A DNA stretch of 64,000 nucleotides from a virus (Duplodnaviria; Caudoviricetes): IMG/VR virus record IMGVR_UViG_3300020045_015293, positions 24,641 to 88,640 of that record, one strand, 5' to 3'. Below are positions 8,013 to 35,092 of this stretch, piece by piece. A program made the translations under genes and the position numbers. How positions within the stretch are numbered: the stretch's first letter is position 1; each line of letters starts with the position of its first letter. The notes below the pieces were generated by a model that worked only from the letters and a program-made list of their open reading frames with translations, ran no database searches and had not been told where the DNA came from.

Positions 8013-8633
8013 ATGGATGGAATATTTGAACATTTTAATTTAAAAATAGGAGAAAAAAAAGAAAAGGGAATAGCATCTATTTCTGCTTATGAATTTAAAA
8101 CAGCAGAAGATCCAATTTATGCTATGAGACAAGCTATGAATGGACTTAGTATAAGTGATGGAAAATATGTAAGACTCAATGTAAATGGACAATTAATGAT
8201 GTCTGATACAGATATGGAAAAAAGAAGTAACAGAGGATTTATATATGCTGCAAACGGAAATGTTTTAATTGCAGGATTAGGAATTGGTTTAATTTTAAAA
8301 GCAATATTAGAAAAACCAGAAGTAGAAAGTATAACAATTATTGAAAAATATAAGGATGTTATTGATTTAGTTAGTCCTTACTTTACTAATCCTAAAATAG
8401 AAATAATAGAAGCTGATATATTTGAATGGAAACCACCTAAAGATAAAAAATACGATACTATATATTTTGATATATGGCCTGAAATATCTACAGATAATTT
8501 AGAAGATATTAAAATATTACATAATCGTTTTAAAAATAAACTAAATAGAAACAATCCTGATTGTTGGATGAATAGTTGGATGAAAGAAAGATTACAAAGA
8601 GAAAAAAGAAAAGAAAGAAATTATTTTTGGTAA
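8013..8633 (+). CDS. SAM-dependent methyltransferase, spermidine synthase-like fold
   Basis: VLIAGLGIG, IIEKY, EADIF, YDTIYFDIW. Confidence 0.75.
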   Translation: MDGIFEHFNLKIGEKKEKGIASISAYEFKTAEDPIYAMRQAMNGLSISDGKYVRLNVNGQLMMSDTDMEKRSNRGFIYAANGNVLIAGLGIGLILKAILEKPEVESITIIEKYKDVIDLVSPYFTNPKIEIIEADIFEWKPPKDKKYDTIYFDIWPEISTDNLEDIKILHNRFKNKLNRNNPDCWMNSWMKERLQREKRKERNYFW

Positions 8634-19469: not shown

Positions 19470-19640
19470 ATGGCTAAAAAAGAAGGCGGTGGTAAAGGTA
19501 AAAAAGGTAATAAAAAATACGGCCGCGAAATTAAAAAAAGATCAAATAGAGGAAGTACAATTTCTTTATTTGTTCGCAACAGAATTACTGCTGAAGAATA
19601 TTTTAGAAAAGCAGGATTATCTCTAAAAAGAGATAAATAA
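19470..19640 (+). CDS. small basic protein (56 aa, MAKKEGGGKGKKGNKKYGR...), not in the ORF track
   Basis: Read directly; K/G/R-rich; lies immediately before the Y RNA-like element. Confidence 0.6.
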   Translation: MAKKEGGGKGKKGNKKYGREIKKRSNRGSTISLFVRNRITAEEYFRKAGLSLKRDK

Positions 19641-19724
19641 ACAGGCTCCGGAAGTCGTGAGTTCGAGTCTCACCTTGGCCCGAAAGGGCTGAGTAGCTCA
19701 GTTGGTAGAGCGCCGGACTAGGTT
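19639..19724 (+). ncRNA. yrlA: YrlA-type bacterial Y RNA / circularly permuted tRNA mimic
   Basis: Order: tccgg, T-arm gtgag-ttcgagt-ctcac, acceptor-like hairpin cttggcc-cgaaag-ggctgag, D-arm gctc-agttggta-gagc, ccgga; Ro60 gene at 32798. Confidence 0.75.
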
Positions 19725-19788
19725 ATCAATTAACGAGGACGTTAGTGCACGCCTACAATGCAGTAATGCAAGAGGATAACCGCAAATT

Positions 19789-20836: not shown

Positions 20837-21028
20837 AAATAAAAAATGAGCTATCGCTATATTAATATAGAGGAAACTCAGGACTCCGTTGTTTAATTTG
20901 GAAGACGAAAGTCGTTATACCAAAGAGGGAGAAACTTAAAACAGTCTATATGGATGAACAACATGGACAAGGTAAAGGATTAGACAAATGATAGCATAAA
21001 ACAGAAACCTGGTTACTATTTTTTATTT
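20837..21028 (+). ncRNA. rnpB: RNase P RNA, minimal (~190 nt)
   Basis: CR-I-like gaggaaactcagg, CR-V-like acagaaacctggtt forming P4 with bulged U; P1 aaataaaaaat/attttttattt; P2 ctatc/gatag; ggtaaa and tagacaaatga segments. Confidence 0.85.
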
Positions 21029-21030
21029 TA

Positions 21031-21103
21031 TCCCGCTATGGTGAAATGATATCACTTCAGTTTGTGGATCTGAAATTATAAGTTTGAATCTTATTAGTGG
21101 GAC
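21031..21103 (+). tRNA. trnH: tRNA-His(GTG)
   Basis: Loop ttgtgga; C73. Confidence 0.8.
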
Positions 21104-25052: not shown

Positions 25053-25172
25053 ATTATTAGGTGGTAATGAGTAGAGTTACATCGCGTGGAATGGTTCCAC
25101 ACCCAACTCAGGATTAGGCTCTGCCGTTCAATTCGGCCAGTTAATCTCTACCAAATTTTCCCCTAAAATAAT
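25053..25172 (+). ncRNA. UACAUCGC-motif RNA, copy A (contains a T-arm-like hairpin)
   Basis: ttagg/cctaa, tggtaat..aaattttcc internal loop, gtagag/ctctac, ttacatcgc; gccg-ttcaatt-cggc. Confidence 0.6.
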
Positions 25173-25176
25173 TATA

Positions 25177-25257
25177 AATTATTGGATGGTTATAAATCAG
25201 TTTCATCGCTAATGGTCAATTTGCAAAAAATACTGATTTAAATTTTCCTCCAAAATT
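25177..25257 (+). ncRNA. UACAUCGC-motif RNA, copy B
   Basis: ttgga/tccaa, tggttat..aaattttcc, aaatcagt/actgattt, ttcatcgc. Confidence 0.6.
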
Positions 25258-25357: not shown

Positions 25358-25945
25358 ATGAATATATTAAAATTAGATGATTTACCTCTATATGACTTAG
25401 GTAATACAATTCAAATATCAGGAATGATATTACAAGGTAATGATAAAACTTACAATGTATTTTTTCCAGATAAAAAAATTGAGAATCCTGAATTAGTAGA
25501 AGTAAATGAAGATGAATGGAAAAAATTGTTGCTACAATTAGATACTTTAGAAACAGTTTTATTTCCAGGTAATCCAGGTGCTAAAATAGTTGTACGTAAA
25601 TCTCAACGTATAATCGAATCAGCAATGATTTGGAAAGTTTTTAGGAGAGATAATTATACTTGTCAGTATTGTGGTGCAAGAGATAAACCATTGTCAGTTG
25701 ATCATGTAGTTCTTTGGGAAGATATGGGTGGAACTGTTGAAGAAAATTTATTAACTGCATGTTCTGCATGTAATATGAAAAGAGGTAATATGAGGTTTTT
25801 AGATTGGTTGGATAGCGATTATTATAATAAATGTTTGAAAAATTTTGGTAATGAAGATCAACAATATAATCAAGATAAAAAATTGTTAGATTTTTGGATA
25901 ATAGCAAGAGATTTACCATTACGTACAAATAAAAGAGGGAGGTAA
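25358..25945 (+). CDS. HNH endonuclease family protein
   Basis: VFRRDNYTCQYCG...SVDHV...GG...NLLTACSACNMKRG. Confidence 0.85.
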   Translation: MNILKLDDLPLYDLGNTIQISGMILQGNDKTYNVFFPDKKIENPELVEVNEDEWKKLLLQLDTLETVLFPGNPGAKIVVRKSQRIIESAMIWKVFRRDNYTCQYCGARDKPLSVDHVVLWEDMGGTVEENLLTACSACNMKRGNMRFLDWLDSDYYNKCLKNFGNEDQQYNQDKKLLDFWIIARDLPLRTNKRGR

Positions 25946-25947
25946 TT

Positions 25948-26232
25948 ATGAATACTATATTAATAATACTTTGTAGTTGTTTATTTCTTATTCAGTTAGG
26001 ATTAATATTAAGATATTTTAATATTGAAAAAAATAATGATTGGAATTTTTTAGGACAAGGAGGATTGGTAAATTTAATTGCATACCCTATAATGGTATGG
26101 ATAATGTTTTTAATGTGGAAAGAAAGTGAGAATTATTATAAAAAAATAGTTGAAAAAAATAAAATAGAACAAAAATATTCACCAACTTATACTTCAGAAA
26201 AGGGGGATACTTTGTTTACAAGAGTAAAATAA
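25948..26232 (+). CDS. hypothetical membrane protein
   Basis: Two hydrophobic segments. Confidence 0.5.
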   Translation: MNTILIILCSCLFLIQLGLILRYFNIEKNNDWNFLGQGGLVNLIAYPIMVWIMFLMWKESENYYKKIVEKNKIEQKYSPTYTSEKGDTLFTRVK

Positions 26233-26236
26233 ATAT

Positions 26237-26304
26237 GGAGGGGTAGCTCAGAGTAGAGCACTGTCTAAACAACAGGGGTCGGTAATTCAGTTTGCCCCCT
26301 TCCG
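26237..26304 (+). tRNA. degenerate tRNA (Asp-like acceptor, AAA in anticodon loop)
   Basis: ggagggg/cccttcc, G73; ctgt-ctaaaca-acag; irregular T-arm. Confidence 0.45.
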
Positions 26305-26327
26305 CAATAATTAGTTCTTTAAAATAT

Positions 26328-26380
26328 GGAGATGAATGTTTGTAATAGAACATTTTGGTTATTCGGTTAATCCATCTCCA
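26328..26380 (+). ncRNA. mini tRNA-like hairpin element
   Basis: ggagatg/catctcc+A, one internal hairpin aatgtt/aacatt, ttcgg loop. Confidence 0.35.
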
Positions 26381-26386
26381 CTACAT

Positions 26387-26499
26387 GCCGGGAAAGCAAA
26401 AACATACTGTTTTAAACTTTCCCCGAAAGGTGGTAACTAAACAGTTACATCGCAATACAATCAACATTTGTTAAGATTCCCGCAAGGGTCCCGGCACCA
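26387..26499 (+). ncRNA. UACAUCGC-motif RNA, copy C: circularly permuted, closed by acceptor-like stem with ACCA end
   Basis: gccggga/tcccggc-A-CCA; actgtttt-aaactttcc-cc-gaaa-gg-tggtaac-taaacagt-tacatcgc. Confidence 0.6.
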
Positions 26500-26505
26500 T
26501 TTTGA

Positions 26506-26597
26506 AACATTCGCGCCTGATGGTTAATGATCATTAAGACTGTGAGGCTAGCAGTTGACCCCAACACTTAAGTCAGTGGGGTATGGCGACGAATGTT
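26506..26597 (+). ncRNA. unassigned cloverleaf-like RNA
   Basis: aacattcgcgcc/ggcgacgaatgtt closing three hairpins. Confidence 0.45.
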
Positions 26598-26601
26598 AAA
26601 C

Positions 26602-26676
26602 AGCCACGTAGTTTACTGTGTGTAATCGGGAAATTGTCGATTTCCGTCGGGGCGAGTTCGATTCTCGTCGTGGCTG
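26602..26676 (+). tRNA. trnD: tRNA-Asp(GTC)
   Basis: ggaaa-ttgtcga-tttcc; G73. Confidence 0.8.
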
Positions 26677-26686
26677 CATATATTTA

Positions 26687-26779
26687 TACACCCACAGAAT
26701 GAATCTAACTTAAGGGTACTAGTAAAAACTTAAGGTAATGCGTTTGAAATTTGGTTCAGGTTTCGCCTGTGTGGGTGTA
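26687..26779 (+). ncRNA. unassigned structured RNA directly after an ATATTTATA box
   Basis: tacacccacag/ctgtgtgggtgta terminal stem. Confidence 0.4.
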
Positions 26780-26844
26780 TAAAAATCTCAATGTGTAAAT
26801 TAACTAGTGCATGACACCGTAGCGTAGAAAGTTGAGATGAATAT

Positions 26845-26918
26845 ACTGATATAGCTCAGAGGTTTAGAGCAGGATGCTTATACCATCAAGGTCGGGATTT
26901 CAAAATTCTCTATCAGTA
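26845..26918 (+). tRNA. trnI: tRNA-Ile(TAT)
   Basis: gatg-cttatac-catc; acceptor actgata/tatcagt, A73. Confidence 0.75.
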
Positions 26919-26935
26919 CAACAAAATTTTTATAT

Positions 26936-27015
26936 CGTGGGGGAGTGGAAAGGACACACAAACCATTCAAGCCTCATAAGCTTTGAGATAGCCAGTTCGA
27001 TTCTGGTCCCCGCAA
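26936..27015 (+). tRNA. trnM: tRNA-Met(CAT), initiator-like (C1:A72 mismatch), enlarged D-loop
   Basis: Loop ctcataa; cgtgggg/ccccgca. Confidence 0.75.
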
Positions 27016-27099
27016 CAAACTATTCTTATAATAGTATGAATTGGAAAATAAATTTCCAATTAAAAAACTCCCGAATTCATTCTTGATATAGGGGAGTTA

Positions 27100-27171
27100 T
27101 GGCGCAGCCTCAGGTGAGGAATTTTGGCTCATATCCTAAATTAGACATGGTTCAATACCAGTATGCGCTAC
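27100..27171 (+). tRNA. atypical tRNA(CAT), Met or Ile2
   Basis: tggcgca/tgcgcta; loop ctcatat; 4-nt D-loop; T-loop ttcaata. Confidence 0.55.
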
Positions 27172-27175
27172 ACCA

Positions 27176-27308
27176 GATGTAATAGTGTAAGCTAGAAGTA
27201 CATCAGCAATTGGGATCTTACAATCCGTGAATTGTGGTTTAGGTTAACACGAAGGTAACGAAGTGCTTTAAGTCACCTAGCAGTTAGAATACCACTAGAA
27301 GTTCTAAC
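27176..27308 (+). ncRNA. unassigned pseudoknot-rich RNA
   Basis: gatgta/tacatc with loop tgtaag pairing cttaca; gtggt/accac; gttagaa/ttctaac. Confidence 0.4.
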
Positions 27309-27313
27309 AAAAT

Positions 27314-27388
27314 GCCTCTTTAGTAGTAATTGCAGCAGCTATCCGCACTTGTAATGCGGGGGTAACAGTTTGAATCTGTTAAGGGGCT
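27314..27388 (+). tRNA. trnT: tRNA-Thr(TGT)
   Basis: cgca-cttgtaa-tgcg; acceptor gcctctt/aaggggc. Confidence 0.85.
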
Positions 27389-27522
27389 CAAAGAAATTAA
27401 TATAAGTTTTATGACCCCCCTGGTTACAAACAAAATATTAGTTTCTTTACCGGTTACGGGTTTATTTTGTTGGTTTTTATCCCGTAAAAATTAAAAGAAA
27501 AACCAATAGAATTAAACCCGAT

Positions 27523-27800
27523 GTTAAACGCTGTTATAAAATTTTAGCGATGAAAGTTAAATATGTGAAATTACAAAGCGGAGAGGTAATAATGTTTCCT
27601 CCCGTTATTGAACACGATACATTCAAATACCTGAACCCAATAACGGCAGGATTTTGTTGCATCGGAAATGATAAAGTAGAGTGCTTTGGAGAAAGTTACT
27701 CACTCAAATTGAAGGCAGACGAAAAGCAAGATACATTAGATGCAACAAAACATTATTTTGGAATAGAGGCGATGATAAAAATTTTATAATTGCGTTTAAC
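27523..27800 (+). mobile_element. integron-like gene cassette (GTTRRRY ... ORF ... RYYYAAC)
   Basis: GTTAAAC 27523-27529 and GTTTAAC 27794-27800 within 23-bp imperfect inverted repeats around ORF 27550-27789. Confidence 0.55.
27550..27789 (+). CDS. hypothetical cassette protein
   Basis: KYV......IMFP..I.H...; AGFC; higher GC than neighbours. Confidence 0.6.
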   Translation: MKVKYVKLQSGEVIMFPPVIEHDTFKYLNPITAGFCCIGNDKVECFGESYSLKLKADEKQDTLDATKHYFGIEAMIKIL

Positions 27801-27801
27801 A

Positions 27802-27872
27802 GCGTCATTGGTATATTGACTGTGCCTTCGTCTCTAAAGCGAAAGAAAGGAGTTTAATTCTCTTATGACGCT
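27802..27872 (+). tRNA. amber suppressor tRNA (anticodon CTA)
   Basis: Acceptor gcgtcat/atgacgc+T; D gtat/gtgc; ttcgt-ctCTAaa-gcgaa; T-arm aggag-tttaatt-ctctt. Confidence 0.85.
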
Positions 27873-28013
27873 CTAAAATAAATTAAAAGTGTTTACCTTT
27901 ATTGTAATATGTATAGCAATAATGGAATTAATAAGGATGACACTAAAATCAATTTTTAAAAAATGAAGCGAAAACAGTAAGCTACCCTCAAGCTAAAATG
28001 AGGGATTAAGTAT

Positions 28014-28085
28014 GCCCTCGTAGCAAACAGGTGTAGGCAACAGACTTTTAATCTGTGAGGTTTGGATCGTTACCAAACGGGGGTA
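28014..28085 (+). tRNA. trnK: tRNA-Lys(TTT)
   Basis: acaga-cttttaa-tctgt. Confidence 0.85.
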
Positions 28086-28134
28086 CTGTTAAAAAATTTT
28101 TTATTTTCCAAAACTTTATATATACCTTTATATA

Positions 28135-28410
28135 ATGAAAATATATTCTAAAAGTCAATTATTTTCTAAAAATAAGGAATGGTATTGGAAAATGAACAAT
28201 GAAAATGAAGTAAGAAATATTTTAAATTATTTAGCACAAAATGGATTTATTTGGAATGGTTCAAAATGTAAAGCTAATGAATTACATAAAGTATTTGAAT
28301 TTAATTATCCTTGGTATTTAGAATATAGTGATGGTACTTTGTCATATAATATAGGAGGAGAAATTAGATCAACTCAGAGTCGTATTCATCATATTCATTT
28401 GAATTTTTAA
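28135..28410 (+). CDS. hypothetical protein
   Basis: ORF after CCAAA promoter at 28108. Confidence 0.55.
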   Translation: MKIYSKSQLFSKNKEWYWKMNNENEVRNILNYLAQNGFIWNGSKCKANELHKVFEFNYPWYLEYSDGTLSYNIGGEIRSTQSRIHHIHLNF

Positions 28411-32797: not shown

Positions 32798-34363
32798 ATG
32801 AAATACAACAAAAAATCAATGACTGCTGTATCAACAGTACAAACACATCAAGGTGGAATGGGTTTCCAACTTGAACCAAAATTAGAATTAATTGCATTAC
32901 TTGCTTCAGGTATTGAAAACAAGTATTATGAAAAAGAATCTGAACGTGAACAACGTTTAAATAAATTAGTATCAGAAATAGCTGTGAAAGATAAAAATTT
33001 TGTAGCTAAAGCATTAATATATGCTCGTACTAAAATGGGTCAACGTTCTGTTACTCATATAGGAGCAGTTAATTTAGCTAAATTTTTAAGTGGTGATGGA
33101 TTAGGTTCTCGTTTTTTCTCAAAACGTGATAGAAAAGAAAATAAAGGAGGAATAGTATTCCGTTTAGATGATATGCTTGAAATAGCAGCATGTTATCAAG
33201 CTAAAAATCCAAATACAAAAACAAGAAAAAATGGATCACCTTCAATGACATTGCCAAATTCTATTAAAAAAGGATTTAAATCAGCTTTAGAAGCAGCTGA
33301 TGAATATGAATTAGCTAAATATCAAGGTAAAACAAGAGACATATCATTAGTTGATATTTGTAATTTGGTTCATCCTAAGCCATCTAAAAAAATGGTACCA
33401 GTATTTAAAAAATTGATGAATGGTGAATTAAAACAATTTAATACTGTTGAAGATAAAAACTCTGCTGCTGGGCAAGAAGTGGCTGCAGCGATTGCAAGTG
33501 GAGAAATGAGTGCAACTGAAGCTAAAGTTGCTTTACAAGAAGCAAAAGAAGAAAATTATGCTGAACTAATAAGAAATAAAAAAATTGGTTATTTAGCATT
33601 ATTACGTAATTTACGTAATATTTTAAAAAATACCACTGATAAAACACTTATTAATGATGCTTGTGATTTATTAACAGATGCTAAATTTGTAAGAAATTCA
33701 TTAGTGTTTCCTCACCAAATTGATATAGCATTAGAAATAATGTTATCTGAATTTGGAGTTTCAAAAATGGGTAAATTTGCTACTGCTTTGAATACAGCAT
33801 ATGAATTAGCAATTCCAAATTTAACTGAATTATTTACTTCAGGTAAAACTGCAGTTGTATTTGATTCTTCAGGTTCAATGAGTGCATCTATTATGTTAAG
33901 TAATAAAAGTAGAGGTAGCGAAGCTGCTTTAGATAAAGCTGTTTTAATAGCTGCTACTTTAGCTAAAGGTATAGGTGCTGATGTTTATACATTTGCAAAT
34001 AATTGTCATTCTATTTCTTATAATCCAGGTGATACTGTTAATACTTTGAAGAAACATTTTAAATCTAGTGCTCATGCTGGAGGAGGAACATATTTTGGTT
34101 CAATATTCCAAGTTTTAGGAACTAAATATGATCGTGTATTTGTTATTTCAGATGAACAAGGTGCTGATTCATTAGAAAGAAGTTCATATTCAAATACTCA
34201 TATTTACTCTATAAATTTATGTGGTTATGGAACTACAATGTTTAAACCAGGTAATAAAGTTTATAGATTATTTGGATATGGAGCTGATATATATGAATTA
34301 ATTAAAAAAGTAGAAGTAGATCCTAAAGCAATATTAGCTGAAATTGAAGCAATTCAAATATAA
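32798..34363 (+). CDS. rsr: Ro60/TROVE-domain RNA-binding protein with C-terminal vWA domain
   Basis: THQGGMGF, R...G.RS, YEL.KY, LVHPKP, ALLRNLRN, FDSSGSM MIDAS, GGGT, VISDEQ. Confidence 0.92.
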   Translation: MKYNKKSMTAVSTVQTHQGGMGFQLEPKLELIALLASGIENKYYEKESEREQRLNKLVSEIAVKDKNFVAKALIYARTKMGQRSVTHIGAVNLAKFLSGDGLGSRFFSKRDRKENKGGIVFRLDDMLEIAACYQAKNPNTKTRKNGSPSMTLPNSIKKGFKSALEAADEYELAKYQGKTRDISLVDICNLVHPKPSKKMVPVFKKLMNGELKQFNTVEDKNSAAGQEVAAAIASGEMSATEAKVALQEAKEENYAELIRNKKIGYLALLRNLRNILKNTTDKTLINDACDLLTDAKFVRNSLVFPHQIDIALEIMLSEFGVSKMGKFATALNTAYELAIPNLTELFTSGKTAVVFDSSGSMSASIMLSNKSRGSEAALDKAVLIAATLAKGIGADVYTFANNCHSISYNPGDTVNTLKKHFKSSAHAGGGTYFGSIFQVLGTKYDRVFVISDEQGADSLERSSYSNTHIYSINLCGYGTTMFKPGNKVYRLFGYGADIYELIKKVEVDPKAILAEIEAIQI

Positions 34364-35007: not shown

Positions 35008-35092
35008 AAATAATTTAGTAGTGATATAAGTGTTACATCGCTAACCAAAACAATGAGAAATATACACTTATAAATTTTCTCTAAACTTATTT
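35008..35092 (+). ncRNA. UACAUCGC-motif RNA, copy D
   Basis: aaataatttag/ctaaacttattt, tagtgat..aaattttct, ataagtgt/acacttat, tacatcgc. Confidence 0.6.

What the first reader, a model, noticed from the sequence alone, without database searches (positions are those of the whole stretch)
26387..26499. Circularly permuted copy of the motif, fused to an acceptor-like stem ending in ACCA
Seen: the 3' strand of the motif (actgtttt-aaactttcc) comes first, the outer stem is capped by cc-GAAA-gg, then the 5' strand (tggtaac-taaacagt-tacatcgc). The whole is closed by gccggga/tcccggc followed by A-CCA, although none of the canonical tRNA genes here encodes CCA. Inference: the permutation supports the structural model independently, and the RNA may be processed by RNase P or aminoacylated like a tRNA.
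Basis: partly seen in the sequence, partly recalled or inferred. Interest (0 to 1): 0.72.

Follow-up and report, generated by a model that had tools for sequence, protein, structure and literature searches.

The report
tRNA-shaped Y RNA with built-in CCA
This 113-base stretch is a real small-RNA gene. It carries the hairpin shared by the RNAs encoded near this phage's Ro60 gene, wired like a stripped-down tRNA with a ready-made CCA end, a layout of Y RNA I did not find described in print.

Summary
At 26387-26499 the two halves of the motif lie in swapped order, joined by CC-GAAA-GG. A perfect 7-bp stem followed by ACCA closes the whole.

The motif is the shared module of every small RNA clustered beside the Ro60 (TROVE) gene in this phage clade, so it is the likely Ro60 docking site. 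This copy belongs to a conserved family of 35 distinct sequences in phage contigs. These RNAs have tRNA wiring, with the module as a capped hairpin where the anticodon arm would be. Of 20 model pairs, 18 show compensatory changes.

The window copy and three others have lost the T arm, which is replaced by a 3-bp hairpin. All four encode ACCA. In contrast, 0 of 21 ordinary tRNA genes in this phage encode CCA.

My reading is a Y RNA, meaning YrlA turned inside out. It is probably cut out of the tRNA-cluster transcript by RNase P. CCA is probably hard-coded because, without a T arm, RNase Z and the CCA-adding enzyme cannot act on it.

Ro60 binding, the RNA ends and any charging are untested. Aminoacylation has no support.

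This scan has already reported tRNA-shaped Y RNAs on other DNA. The T-arm-less form with encoded CCA is the addition here. Novelty: new variant of a known kind.

The parts
26387..26393 (+). 5' strand of the acceptor-type closing stem (GCCGGGA)
   Evidence: It pairs perfectly with 26489-26495. In homologues, all 7 pairs show compensatory changes.
26394..26405 (+). A-rich linker in the place of a D arm (AAGCAAAAACAU)
   Evidence: There is no stem here. The same GCAAAAC-type stretch is found in L188, L291 and L413 and before the inner stem of copy 25177-25257.
26406..26412 (+). Inner stem, strand that is 3' in the ordinary copies (ACUGUUU); takes the position of the anticodon stem
   Evidence: It is the perfect complement of 26439-26445. 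The helix covaries across the family (helix 2).
26414..26422 (+). Module loop strand AAACUUUCC (the 3' strand in the ordinary copies)
   Evidence: It matches AAAYUUUCY in the three other copies. Its last Y covaries with the R of URGU: UAGU goes with UUCU and UGGU with UUCC.
26423..26430 (+). Cap CC-GAAA-GG, which closes what is the open outer stem in the ordinary copies
   Evidence: Homologues have 3-bp caps, mostly with GNRA loops (GCAA, GGAA, GUAA, GAAA). All 3 model pairs covary (helix 3).
26431..26437 (+). Module loop strand UGGUAAC (the 5' strand in the ordinary copies); likely counterpart of the Ro60-contacted GNCGAAN0-1G / GGUCCGA motif
   Evidence: The pattern is URGUNAN in all copies of 12 Ro60-bearing related phages. 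It occupies the place that GNCGAA-like motifs hold in bacterial Ro60-linked RNAs (PMC4201824). Binding itself is inferred.
26439..26445 (+). Inner stem, second strand (AAACAGU)
26446..26453 (+). Conserved single-stranded UACAUCGC
   Evidence: U(U/A)AC(U/A)UCGN follows the inner stem in every copy, in both wirings and in all relatives. GUUACUUCG also lies beside Ro60 in bacterial genomes.
26457..26471 (+). Small hairpin ACAA-UCAACAU-UUGU in the variable-arm position
   Evidence: Predicted in the MFE fold. A 5-bp hairpin is recovered at the same place in the four T-arm-less homologues, with 2 compensatory pairs.
26479..26488 (+). Mini hairpin CCC-GCAA-GGG abutting the acceptor stem, in the place of the T arm
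   Evidence: Other family members have a true T arm with a GGUUCRANUCC loop. L188, L291 and L413 have 3-bp hairpins there instead (GCC/GGC, GGC/GCC).
26489..26495 (+). 3' strand of the acceptor-type stem (UCCCGGC)
26496..26499 (+). Discriminator A plus encoded CCA
   Evidence: ACCA is invariant in the 4 T-arm-less members. 0 of 21 tRNA genes in the window encode CCA.
32798..34363 (+). Ro60 (TROVE-domain) gene, the presumed protein partner
   Evidence: Pfam TROVE, E 6.4e-13. Homologues lie in the fetched stretch of 40 of 118 loci drawn by the RNA pattern, against 1 of 143 control loci.
25053..25257 (+). Two tandem ordinary-wiring copies of the module (25053-25172 and 25177-25257)
35008..35092 (+). 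Ordinary-wiring copy about 650 bp downstream of the Ro60 gene

Best explanation
This is the gene for a Y RNA, the small-RNA partner of Ro60, built with tRNA wiring. The RNA ends sit in a 7-bp acceptor-type stem that finishes in ACCA. The hairpin-capped Ro60-type module stands where a tRNA has its anticodon arm. It is the reverse of published YrlA, where the ends lie in the Ro60-binding stem and the acceptor stem is closed by a loop.

How it most likely works:

1. Inferred. The RNA is transcribed as part of the tightly packed tRNA and tRNA-like cluster, and RNase P cuts it at U26386/G26387.

2. Inferred. Its 3' end is trimmed back to the encoded CCA. This copy has lost the T arm that RNase Z and the CCA-adding enzyme hold on to, so CCA has to be written in the gene, unlike in the phage's ordinary tRNA genes.

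3. Inferred from association. The capped module (UGGUAAC opposite AAACUUUCC, with a bulged U) and the adjoining UACAUCGC dock the phage Ro60 encoded 6.3 kb downstream.

4. Speculative. The RNP acts as Y RNPs do elsewhere, gating Ro60 or tethering it to another RNA-handling protein. I cannot tell whether the CCA-ended arm is only a maturation and stability handle, which I favour for this T-arm-less form, or also a docking site.
For: The structure is shown:
- The swapped order and closing stem are in the sequence.
- A single-sequence covariance model found homologues with the same wiring in 6 of 12 related Ro60-bearing loci.
- A second model collected 35 distinct members.
- 97.5% of cells are paired, 18 of 20 pairs carry compensatory changes, 0 of 500 shuffles reach this, and slid controls fall to 42-52%.
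- RNAalifold on the four T-arm-less members, with no prior, gives 28 pairs, 15 of them compensatory, and an invariant ACCA.

Ro60 link:
- The TROVE gene is at 32798-34363.
- All 12 related Ro60-bearing loci fetched carry same-strand copies of the module, from one to five in the stretch held (most have three or more), within about 8 kb of the gene.
- A Ro60 homologue is in the fetched stretch of 40 of 118 pattern loci against 1 of 143 control loci.
- The GUUACWUCG-plus-T-arm pattern lies next to Ro60 in 47 of 120 bacterial loci. There a GNCGUAR or GGUGAAG motif occupies the place of URGUNAN.
- In relatives the same module closes YrlA-order tRNA-like domains.

tRNA-type ends:
- G+1 in 34 of 35, U-1 in 29 of 35, A or G at position 73 in 34 of 35.
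- No terminator-like site lies in 26100-28200, the rest of the cluster around and downstream of the element.
- Ordinary tRNA genes in these phages mostly read N73-C74-A/U-A. T-arm-bearing family members mostly do the same (CAA in 16 of 35).
- All four T-arm-less members read ACCA. The count is 4 of 4 against 6 of 32 with a T arm. Fisher p was 0.013 with three T-arm-less members and is about 0.004 with the fourth, by my hand calculation.

Precedent: M. smegmatis YrlA, which has a 7-bp acceptor stem, is cut by RNase P in vitro and carries an added CCA in vivo (PMC4201824).
Against: - No transcript, end-mapping, binding or cleavage data exist for this uncultured phage.
- The module does not match the published Ro60-contact motif GNCGAAN0-1G letter for letter.
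- Rfam's YrlA model does not hit this element, nor the module-bearing RNAs in L112.
- The element is 6.3 kb from Ro60, beyond the 4 kb used by Chen et al.
- The wiring family is not universal among Ro60 phages: there is no strong hit in two essentially complete relatives.
- The T-arm-less set is four related sequences, so the CCA correlation is not four independent events.
- The strong sequence conservation of the acceptor stem (GGGGAAG in many members) is more than a pure RNase P handle needs.
- That RNase Z and the CCA-adding enzyme need a T arm comes from general knowledge, not from a test here.
Confidence: 0.72

Rival explanations
1. One reading: the CCA end is functional in the tRNA sense. 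The RNA would be aminoacylated, or bound by EF-Tu or the ribosome, coupling Ro60 to translation much as tmRNA couples SmpB.
For: CCA is encoded in 4 of 4 T-arm-less members, although the phage's own tRNA genes avoid it. The acceptor stem sequence is conserved across many family members. Most members carry a long variable-arm hairpin and A73, features of class II tRNAs (general knowledge). Chen et al. raised possible charging for processed M. smegmatis YrlA (PMC4201824).
Against: This copy has no D arm, T loop or anticodon, so the elbow and most identity elements are missing. It has no G3:U70 (Ala), and position -1 is U, not G (His). It is not recognised as tRNA or tmRNA by ARAGORN or Rfam. There is no tag reading frame. 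The CCA can be explained by maturation needs alone.
Confidence: 0.07
2. The module is not a Ro60 site. It would bind another factor, or act in cis on processing of the tRNA cluster, and its closeness to Ro60 would only reflect both being parts of a phage tRNA and RNA-repair island.
For: The motif differs from GNCGAAN0-1G. Rfam YrlA does not match. All copies sit in tRNA clusters, which themselves lie near Ro60. A separate Rfam-detectable YrlA-like RNA without the module lies at 19630-19732 and could be the true Ro60 partner.
Against: Loci drawn by the RNA pattern alone are strongly enriched for Ro60 in phages (40 of 118 against 1 of 143) and in bacterial chromosomes (47 of 120). One copy sits directly downstream of Ro60 in this phage and in its relatives. 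In relatives the module occupies the Ro60-stem position of YrlA-order tRNA mimics.
Confidence: 0.15
3. A decayed tRNA gene, or two half-copies of neighbouring Y RNA genes brought together by chance, with no function of its own.
For: [quoted passage not shown] The single-sequence MFE fold does not draw the module. Tandem copies exist nearby and could recombine.
Against: The same wiring is conserved in 35 distinct sequences, with compensatory changes in every helix. The two inner-stem strands pair with each other, and no partner halves exist in the flanks. The closing stem plus NCCA is unexpected by chance.
Confidence: 0.03

Closest known systems
YrlA (Y RNA-like A; Rfam RF02553; Chen et al. 2014, PMC4201824; structure in Wang et al. 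2018, bioRxiv 10.1101/312249)
   Same: A small RNA encoded near a Ro60 gene on the same strand. It combines a bulged Ro60-type helix with tRNA-derived parts. Phage examples are published (22 phages in Chen et al.). Relatives of this phage carry YrlA-order versions that use the very same module.
   Different: The wiring is reversed. Published YrlA has its ends in the Ro60 stem, a loop-closed acceptor stem and 'lacks a free CCA end' (10.1101/312249). Here the ends are in the acceptor stem with an encoded CCA, and the Ro60-type helix is a capped hairpin. The Rfam model does not match. The motif is UGGUAAC rather than GNCGAAN0-1G. This copy has neither a D arm nor a T arm.
Processed M. smegmatis YrlA (PMC4201824)
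   Same: A Y RNA whose 7-bp acceptor stem is opened by RNase P and ends in CCA while bound to Ro60. It is the published case closest to a Y RNA with a tRNA-type end.
   Different: There the open end arises by cutting a loop, which gives a two-piece RNA, and CA is added after transcription. Here the one-piece layout and the CCA are written in the gene.
tmRNA tRNA-like domain and viral or lncRNA tRNA-like structures (TYMV TLS, mascRNA)
   Same: Non-decoding RNAs with an acceptor stem and CCA end that use tRNA-processing enzymes.
   Different: There is no tag frame and no G3:U70. Rfam tmRNA gives no hit on the element; the only hit, at 10.6 bits, lies on its upstream neighbour. The non-tRNA part is a Ro60-type helix.
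Hairpin model substrates of bacterial RNase P (acceptor/T-stem helix capped by a tetraloop, with a 3' RCCA)
   Same: From my own knowledge, not tested here: a helix capped by a GNRA loop with a 3' RCCA is enough for cleavage by bacterial RNase P RNA. The acceptor stem plus CCC-GCAA-GGG plus ACCA resembles such a substrate.
   Different: The stacked helix here is 7+3 bp, interrupted by a multi-branch junction. No cleavage test was done.

Membership tests
YrlA (Rfam RF02553) | Match to the Rfam covariance model at or above its gathering score (69 bits) | tested here: not met
   No YrlA hit on 26387-26499 even at E up to 5. The only YrlA hit in the window is at 19630-19732 (40.7 bits).
YrlA (Rfam RF02553) | RNA ends in the Ro60-binding stem; acceptor-like stem closed by a loop (circularly permuted tRNA) | tested here: not met
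   Here the module is capped by GAAA, and the ends are predicted to lie in the acceptor-type stem.
YrlA (Rfam RF02553) | GNCGAAN0-1G motif on the 5' strand of the Ro60 stem (PMC4201824) | tested here: not met
   The corresponding strand reads UGGUAAC (URGUNAN in the clade). Intermediates such as GNCGUAR and GGUGAAG occur in bacterial Ro60-linked RNAs.
YrlA (Rfam RF02553) | D-arm and T-arm mimics with tRNA tertiary pairs | tested here: not met
   This copy has neither. Most other family members keep a canonical T arm but no clear D arm.
Y RNA in the broad sense (RNA partner of Ro60) | Encoded near a Ro60/TROVE gene, on the same strand | tested here: met
   The TROVE gene lies 6.3 kb downstream on the same strand. 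Enrichment for Ro60 is 40 of 118 against 1 of 143 loci. The distance exceeds the 4-kb criterion of Chen et al.
Y RNA in the broad sense (RNA partner of Ro60) | Helix with a bulge or internal loop and conserved bases that Ro60 contacts | tested here: inconclusive
   A conserved bulged helix is present and covaries. Whether Ro60 contacts it is not known.
Y RNA in the broad sense (RNA partner of Ro60) | Physical binding to Ro60 | not testable with these tools
   This needs EMSA or co-immunoprecipitation.
tRNA | Cloverleaf with anticodon loop, D arm and T arm | tested here: not met
   Not called by ARAGORN or by Rfam tRNA. [quoted passage not shown]
tRNA | 7-bp acceptor stem, discriminator base, 3' CCA | tested here: met
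   GCCGGGA/UCCCGGC followed by A and CCA. The stem is conserved, with compensatory changes.
tmRNA | tRNA-Ala-like domain (G3:U70) plus an internal tag reading frame | tested here: not met
   Pair 3:70 is C-G. ARAGORN finds no tmRNA in the window. There is no Rfam tmRNA hit on the element.

The most novel reading that the evidence does not exclude
The CCA end is read by something other than maturation enzymes. The tRNA-wired Y RNA would plug phage Ro60 into the host's machinery for tRNA 3' ends or translation (a 3' exonuclease, the CCA-adding enzyme, EF-Tu, a synthetase or the ribosome). That would give a Ro60 RNP that surveys, repairs or protects tRNA ends during infection, for example against host nucleases or transferases that attack tRNA acceptor ends.
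Probability: 0.15. Interest if true: 0.85.

Novelty: new variant of a known kind. Interest (0 to 1): 0.6.

Why it matters
Published bacterial and phage Y RNAs of the YrlA type are described as circularly permuted tRNAs with a closed acceptor stem and no free CCA end. How they arose from tRNAs, and what their tRNA-like part is for, are open questions (PMC4201824; 10.1101/312249).

A conserved phage family with the opposite wiring shows that the Ro60-type helix and the tRNA scaffold are separable modules that evolution has joined both ways. It also gives a natural one-piece Y RNA with a tRNA-type end.

The T-arm-less members make a specific, testable point. When the T arm is lost, CCA becomes genome-encoded. 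This argues that a CCA end is required in the mature RNA and that the route to it has changed.

These 113-121-nt RNAs are also small, simple substrates for binding and structural work on phage Ro60.

Tried and rejected
- blastn of 26200-27000 against the phage collection found no match.
- Exact-pattern scans of IMG/VR for the swapped order, using this phage's consensus and the relatives' consensus, gave only chance matches or ordinary tandem copies. A scan for the ordinary order gave 5 chance matches. Homologues were found only with covariance models.
- My first count of tRNA gene tails assumed that ARAGORN always ends a gene at position 74. That was wrong. I redid the count by locating the acceptor stem. 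CCA is not absent from all relatives' tRNA genes (52 of 473 overall; 18 of 18 in L215), so only the per-phage contrasts are used.
- I tested whether loss of the T arm goes with this phage's mini RNase P RNA, which lacks the specificity domain. No RNase P RNA was detected in the complete 171.7-kb genome that holds L188, nor in four other relatives, so the idea is not supported.
- A count of any 7-bp closing stem plus NCCA is uninformative in this 26% G+C window: 30 observed against 28.6 simulated. Only G/C-rich stems are informative.
- A spliced tRNA intron is rejected. The insert is a 25-nt module shared with non-tRNA copies, and no anticodon would result.
- No RtcB was found in the record. 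Only a sub-threshold PolyA_pol match was found, outside the window.

Full report
**What is in the sequence**

The window has 26% G+C and is half of an 88.6-kb IMG/VR virus record. It carries a dense cluster of RNA genes at 17.4-30.6 kb:
- 21 ARAGORN tRNAs, including a CUA suppressor;
- a sub-threshold YrlA match at 19630-19732 and a 194-nt RNase P-like match at 20838-21031;
- a 521-aa TROVE/Ro60 gene at 32798-34363.

The finding lies in a stretch with no reading frame of 40 codons or more on the + strand. Compact tRNA-like folds sit on either side of it. No terminator-like site lies in 26100-28200.

The element reads, in order:
- GCCGGGA, then a 12-nt A-rich linker;
- ACUGUUU, U, AAACUUUCC;
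- CC-GAAA-GG;
- UGGUAAC, U, AAACAGU;
- UACAUCGC, then a small 4-bp hairpin;
- CCC-GCAA-GGG;
- UCCCGGC, then ACCA.

**Checking the observation**

I verified it in the three other copies at 25053-25172, 25177-25257 and 35008-35092. Each runs: outer stem, UGGUNAY, 8-bp inner stem, UWCAUCGC, loop, inner stem, AAAYUUUCY, outer stem. Their single-sequence folds draw this helix with a bulged U.

The strict 5'-half pattern occurs 4 times in the record and 0 times in the reversed control.

In 26387-26499 the two halves come in swapped order. The two inner-stem strands pair with each other (7 of 7 Watson-Crick pairs), and no partner halves exist in the flanks. This is therefore a true circular permutation and not two neighbouring half-copies.

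A 7-bp closing stem with at least 5 G/C pairs, followed by NCCA, occurs once in the window. A Markov simulation gives 0.025 per window.

None of the 21 tRNA genes encodes CCA. All read N73-C74 followed by A or U.

The single-sequence minimum-energy fold keeps the closing stem and the GCAA hairpin but refolds the middle. The motif fold costs 2.6 kcal/mol more.

**What the motif is**

Twelve viral contigs encode Ro60 proteins 57-70% identical to this one. Every one carries same-strand copies of the same module (one to five in the stretch held; most have three or more), in the tRNA cluster beside Ro60 and often directly downstream of it. The copies read URGUNAN, inner stem, UUAC(U/A)UCGY, then later (C)AUUCCC or AUUCU.

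In several of these RNAs the module closes a tRNA-like domain in the YrlA order: T arm, acceptor hairpin, D arm. In others it encloses a whole cloverleaf that ARAGORN calls a tRNA.

Loci fetched only through an RNA pattern (GUUACWUCG, a spacer, then a T loop) contain a Ro60 homologue in 40 of 118 cases. Control loci fetched through unrelated chance patterns do so in 1 of 143 cases.

The same pattern in bacterial genomes lies beside Ro60 in 47 of 120 loci. Most of the examples I printed are from Bacteroidota and Alphaproteobacteria. In those RNAs a GNCGUAR or GGUGAAG motif holds the place of URGUNAN.

Chen et al. (PMC4201824) regard GNCGAAN0-1G, which resembles the GGUCCGA contacted by Xenopus Ro60, as the likely Ro60 recognition site.

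So the module is most likely this clade's Ro60 docking helix. This rests on position and association. It is not a literal motif match, and Rfam's YrlA model does not recognise these RNAs.

**The element belongs to a conserved family with tRNA wiring**

Exact-pattern scans found nothing. A covariance model built from this one sequence and its proposed structure found full-length matches in six of the twelve Ro60 loci.

These matches have the same order of parts but quite different acceptor stems, such as GGGGGAG/CUCCCCC and GGGGAAG/CUUCCCC. They also have a canonical T arm next to the acceptor 3' strand.

RNAalifold on six of them predicted the acceptor stem, the inner stem, the cap and the T arm. 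12 of 20 pairs were compensatory.

A second model collected 35 distinct sequences from viral contigs. On the model-fitted alignment of 34 of them:
- 97.5% of cells pair;
- 18 of 20 pairs show changes on both sides;
- no shuffle out of 500 reaches these values;
- sliding the partner by one to three columns drops pairing to 42-52%.

The alignment is fitted to the model, which favours the structure. The stems, however, differ in sequence throughout.

Within the module, the R of URGU covaries with the last Y of UUCY: UAGU goes with UUCU in 23 cases and UGGU with UUCC in 2, with one exception. The caps are mostly 3-bp stems with GNRA loops.

The family is mainly viral. Only 3 of the 80 bacterial pattern loci I scanned with the model hit it, and at least one of those three looks like phage DNA.

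The family is not present in every Ro60 phage.

**The ends**

Across the 35 distinct sequences:
- +1 is G in 34;
- -1 is U in 29;
- position 73 is A in 25 and G in 9.

Positions 74-76 read CAA in 16 and CCA in 9. CAA is also the commonest tail of the ordinary tRNA genes in these phages (173 of 473; CCA 52 of 473, of which 18 come from one phage whose tRNA genes all encode CCA). So most family members look like the local tRNA genes at their 3' end.

**The T-arm-less subfamily**

The window copy differs from most members because its T arm is replaced by CCC-GCAA-GGG. Three further sequences share this feature:
- L188, from a complete 171.7-kb phage genome (an identical copy is L416);
- L291;
- L413.

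Folding the four together with no prior returns the proposed architecture: a 7-bp acceptor stem, an 8-bp inner stem, the module pairs and cap, a 5-bp variable hairpin, and a 3-bp hairpin abutting the acceptor stem. That is 28 pairs, 15 with compensatory changes, and ACCA is invariant.

Ordinary tRNA genes encode CCA in 0 of 21 (window), 2 of 24 (L188) and 0 of 21 (L291).

Within the family, CCA occurs in 4 of 4 T-arm-less members and 6 of 32 with a T arm. Fisher p was 0.013 with three T-arm-less members and is about 0.004 with four, by hand.

The four are related to one another, so this is not four independent events. Still, CCA has been kept while the stems changed.

**Mechanism**

Established knowledge, not tested here:
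- Bacterial RNase P needs mainly the acceptor/T-stem helix, and its RNA pairs with a 3' RCCA.
- RNase Z and the CCA-adding enzyme grip the T arm and elbow.
- CCA-containing precursors are matured by exonucleases that stop at the CCA.

On this basis I infer the following.
- The RNA is released from the cluster transcript by RNase P at 26386/26387.
- A member that has lost its T arm can no longer use the RNase Z plus CCA-addition route that the phage's CCA-less tRNA genes imply. It therefore carries CCA in the gene.
- This in turn means a CCA end matters in the mature RNA, for RNase P recognition, for 3' stability or for a partner.

The published precedent is M. smegmatis YrlA. Its 7-bp acceptor stem is cut by RNase P in vitro, and the RNA carries an added CCA in vivo while bound to Ro60 (PMC4201824).

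The capped module and UACAUCGC then dock the phage Ro60. A Thermus phage Ro60 has been shown to bind two phage Y-like RNAs and to assemble with host PNPase (PMC12135203), so a tether or gate role is the default expectation. Which partner, if any, reads the acceptor arm is unknown.

For this T-arm-less form I lean to a maturation and stability handle. The unusually conserved acceptor sequence in the family leaves room for a specific reader.

Aminoacylation has no support. The element has no elbow, no anticodon, no G3:U70 and no G-1.

**Comparison with what is known**

Published YrlA RNAs are described as circularly permuted tRNAs with loop-closed acceptor stems that lack a free CCA end (10.1101/312249). 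The present family is the reverse wiring.

I found no description of it in the held literature. The library lacks many subscription papers, and the 2020 Annual Review on bacterial Ro60 could not be read.

The element fails the membership tests for YrlA in the strict sense, for tRNA and for tmRNA. It fits 'Y RNA' only by association and architecture.

This scan has already reported tRNA-shaped Y RNAs beside Ro60 on other DNA (e1-5642982, e1-5762250, e1-5753165, e1-5486589). I saw those notes after reaching the same reading. What this window adds is the minimal form: no D arm, no T arm and a hard-coded CCA.

**Verdict**

It is a new variant of a known kind, of moderate to high interest to people who work on Ro60, Y RNAs and tRNA mimicry.

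Noticed in passing
window 26503-26601 (+): A 99-nt stretch directly upstream of tRNA-Asp folds into a closed multi-branch structure (MFE -35 kcal/mol, z -4.4; 0 of 200 shuffles fold as well). It has no Rfam match.
   Followed up: partly
window 26328-26386 (+): A D-arm-less tRNA-like minihelix immediately upstream of the finding: a 7-bp acceptor-type stem, an anticodon-arm-like hairpin and a T-like hairpin with a 6-nt loop. ARAGORN does not call it. The only Rfam match is a 10.6-bit tmRNA hit.
   Followed up: partly
window 26226-26302 (+) and 26936-27018 (+): Two more tRNA-like sequences missed by ARAGORN and Rfam. The first has a good D arm (GCUC-AGAGUA-GAGC) and a 7-bp acceptor stem but odd anticodon and T arms. 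The second has a T arm (CCAG-UUCGAUU-CUGG), a CUCAUAA loop (CAU anticodon) and an oversized D region.
   Followed up: no
window, all 21 tRNA genes; also about 450 tRNA genes in related loci: Every tRNA gene of this phage encodes C74 but not CCA (74-76 = CAA, CUA, CAU and similar). CAA is also the commonest tail in the related Ro60 phages (173 of 473). A fixed C74 followed by A/U suggests a particular 3'-processing rule.
   Followed up: partly
L115:9394-9525, L114:8718-8840, L116:7883-8005 and 8118-8245: In related phages, whole cloverleaf sequences that ARAGORN calls tRNA-Gln, tRNA-Lys or tRNA-Gly, with A/U-only acceptor stems, are nested inside the Ro60-type module stem. This is a third way of joining the module to a tRNA body.
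   Followed up: partly
L292-L411 (bacterial genome contigs): GUUACUUCG followed by a T arm lies beside Ro60 homologues in 47 of 120 bacterial loci. Most of the printed examples are from Bacteroidota and Alphaproteobacteria. So this single-stranded motif is a widespread Y RNA feature that the published GNCGAAN0-1G description does not cover.
   Followed up: partly
window 19630-19783 (+): A sub-threshold Rfam YrlA match (40.7 bits against a gathering score of 69) has a T arm, a GAAA-closed acceptor hairpin and a D arm but lacks the UGGUNAY/AAAYUUUCY module. The phage therefore seems to carry two different kinds of Y-like RNA.
   Followed up: no
window 25358-25945 (+): An HNH endonuclease gene (Pfam HNH, E 3.5e-10) sits inside the RNA gene cluster, between tRNA-Glu and the tRNA-like block.
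   Followed up: no
G000:C1:8259-8432 (outside the window): A weak, sub-threshold PolyA_pol (nucleotidyltransferase head domain) match (15.9 bits) in a 204-aa frame. It could be a small nucleotidyltransferase relevant to CCA ends.
   Followed up: no
L108:685-1081, L112:2049-2430: Related Ro60 phages encode tmRNAs in the same RNA gene cluster. None was found in this window.
   Followed up: no
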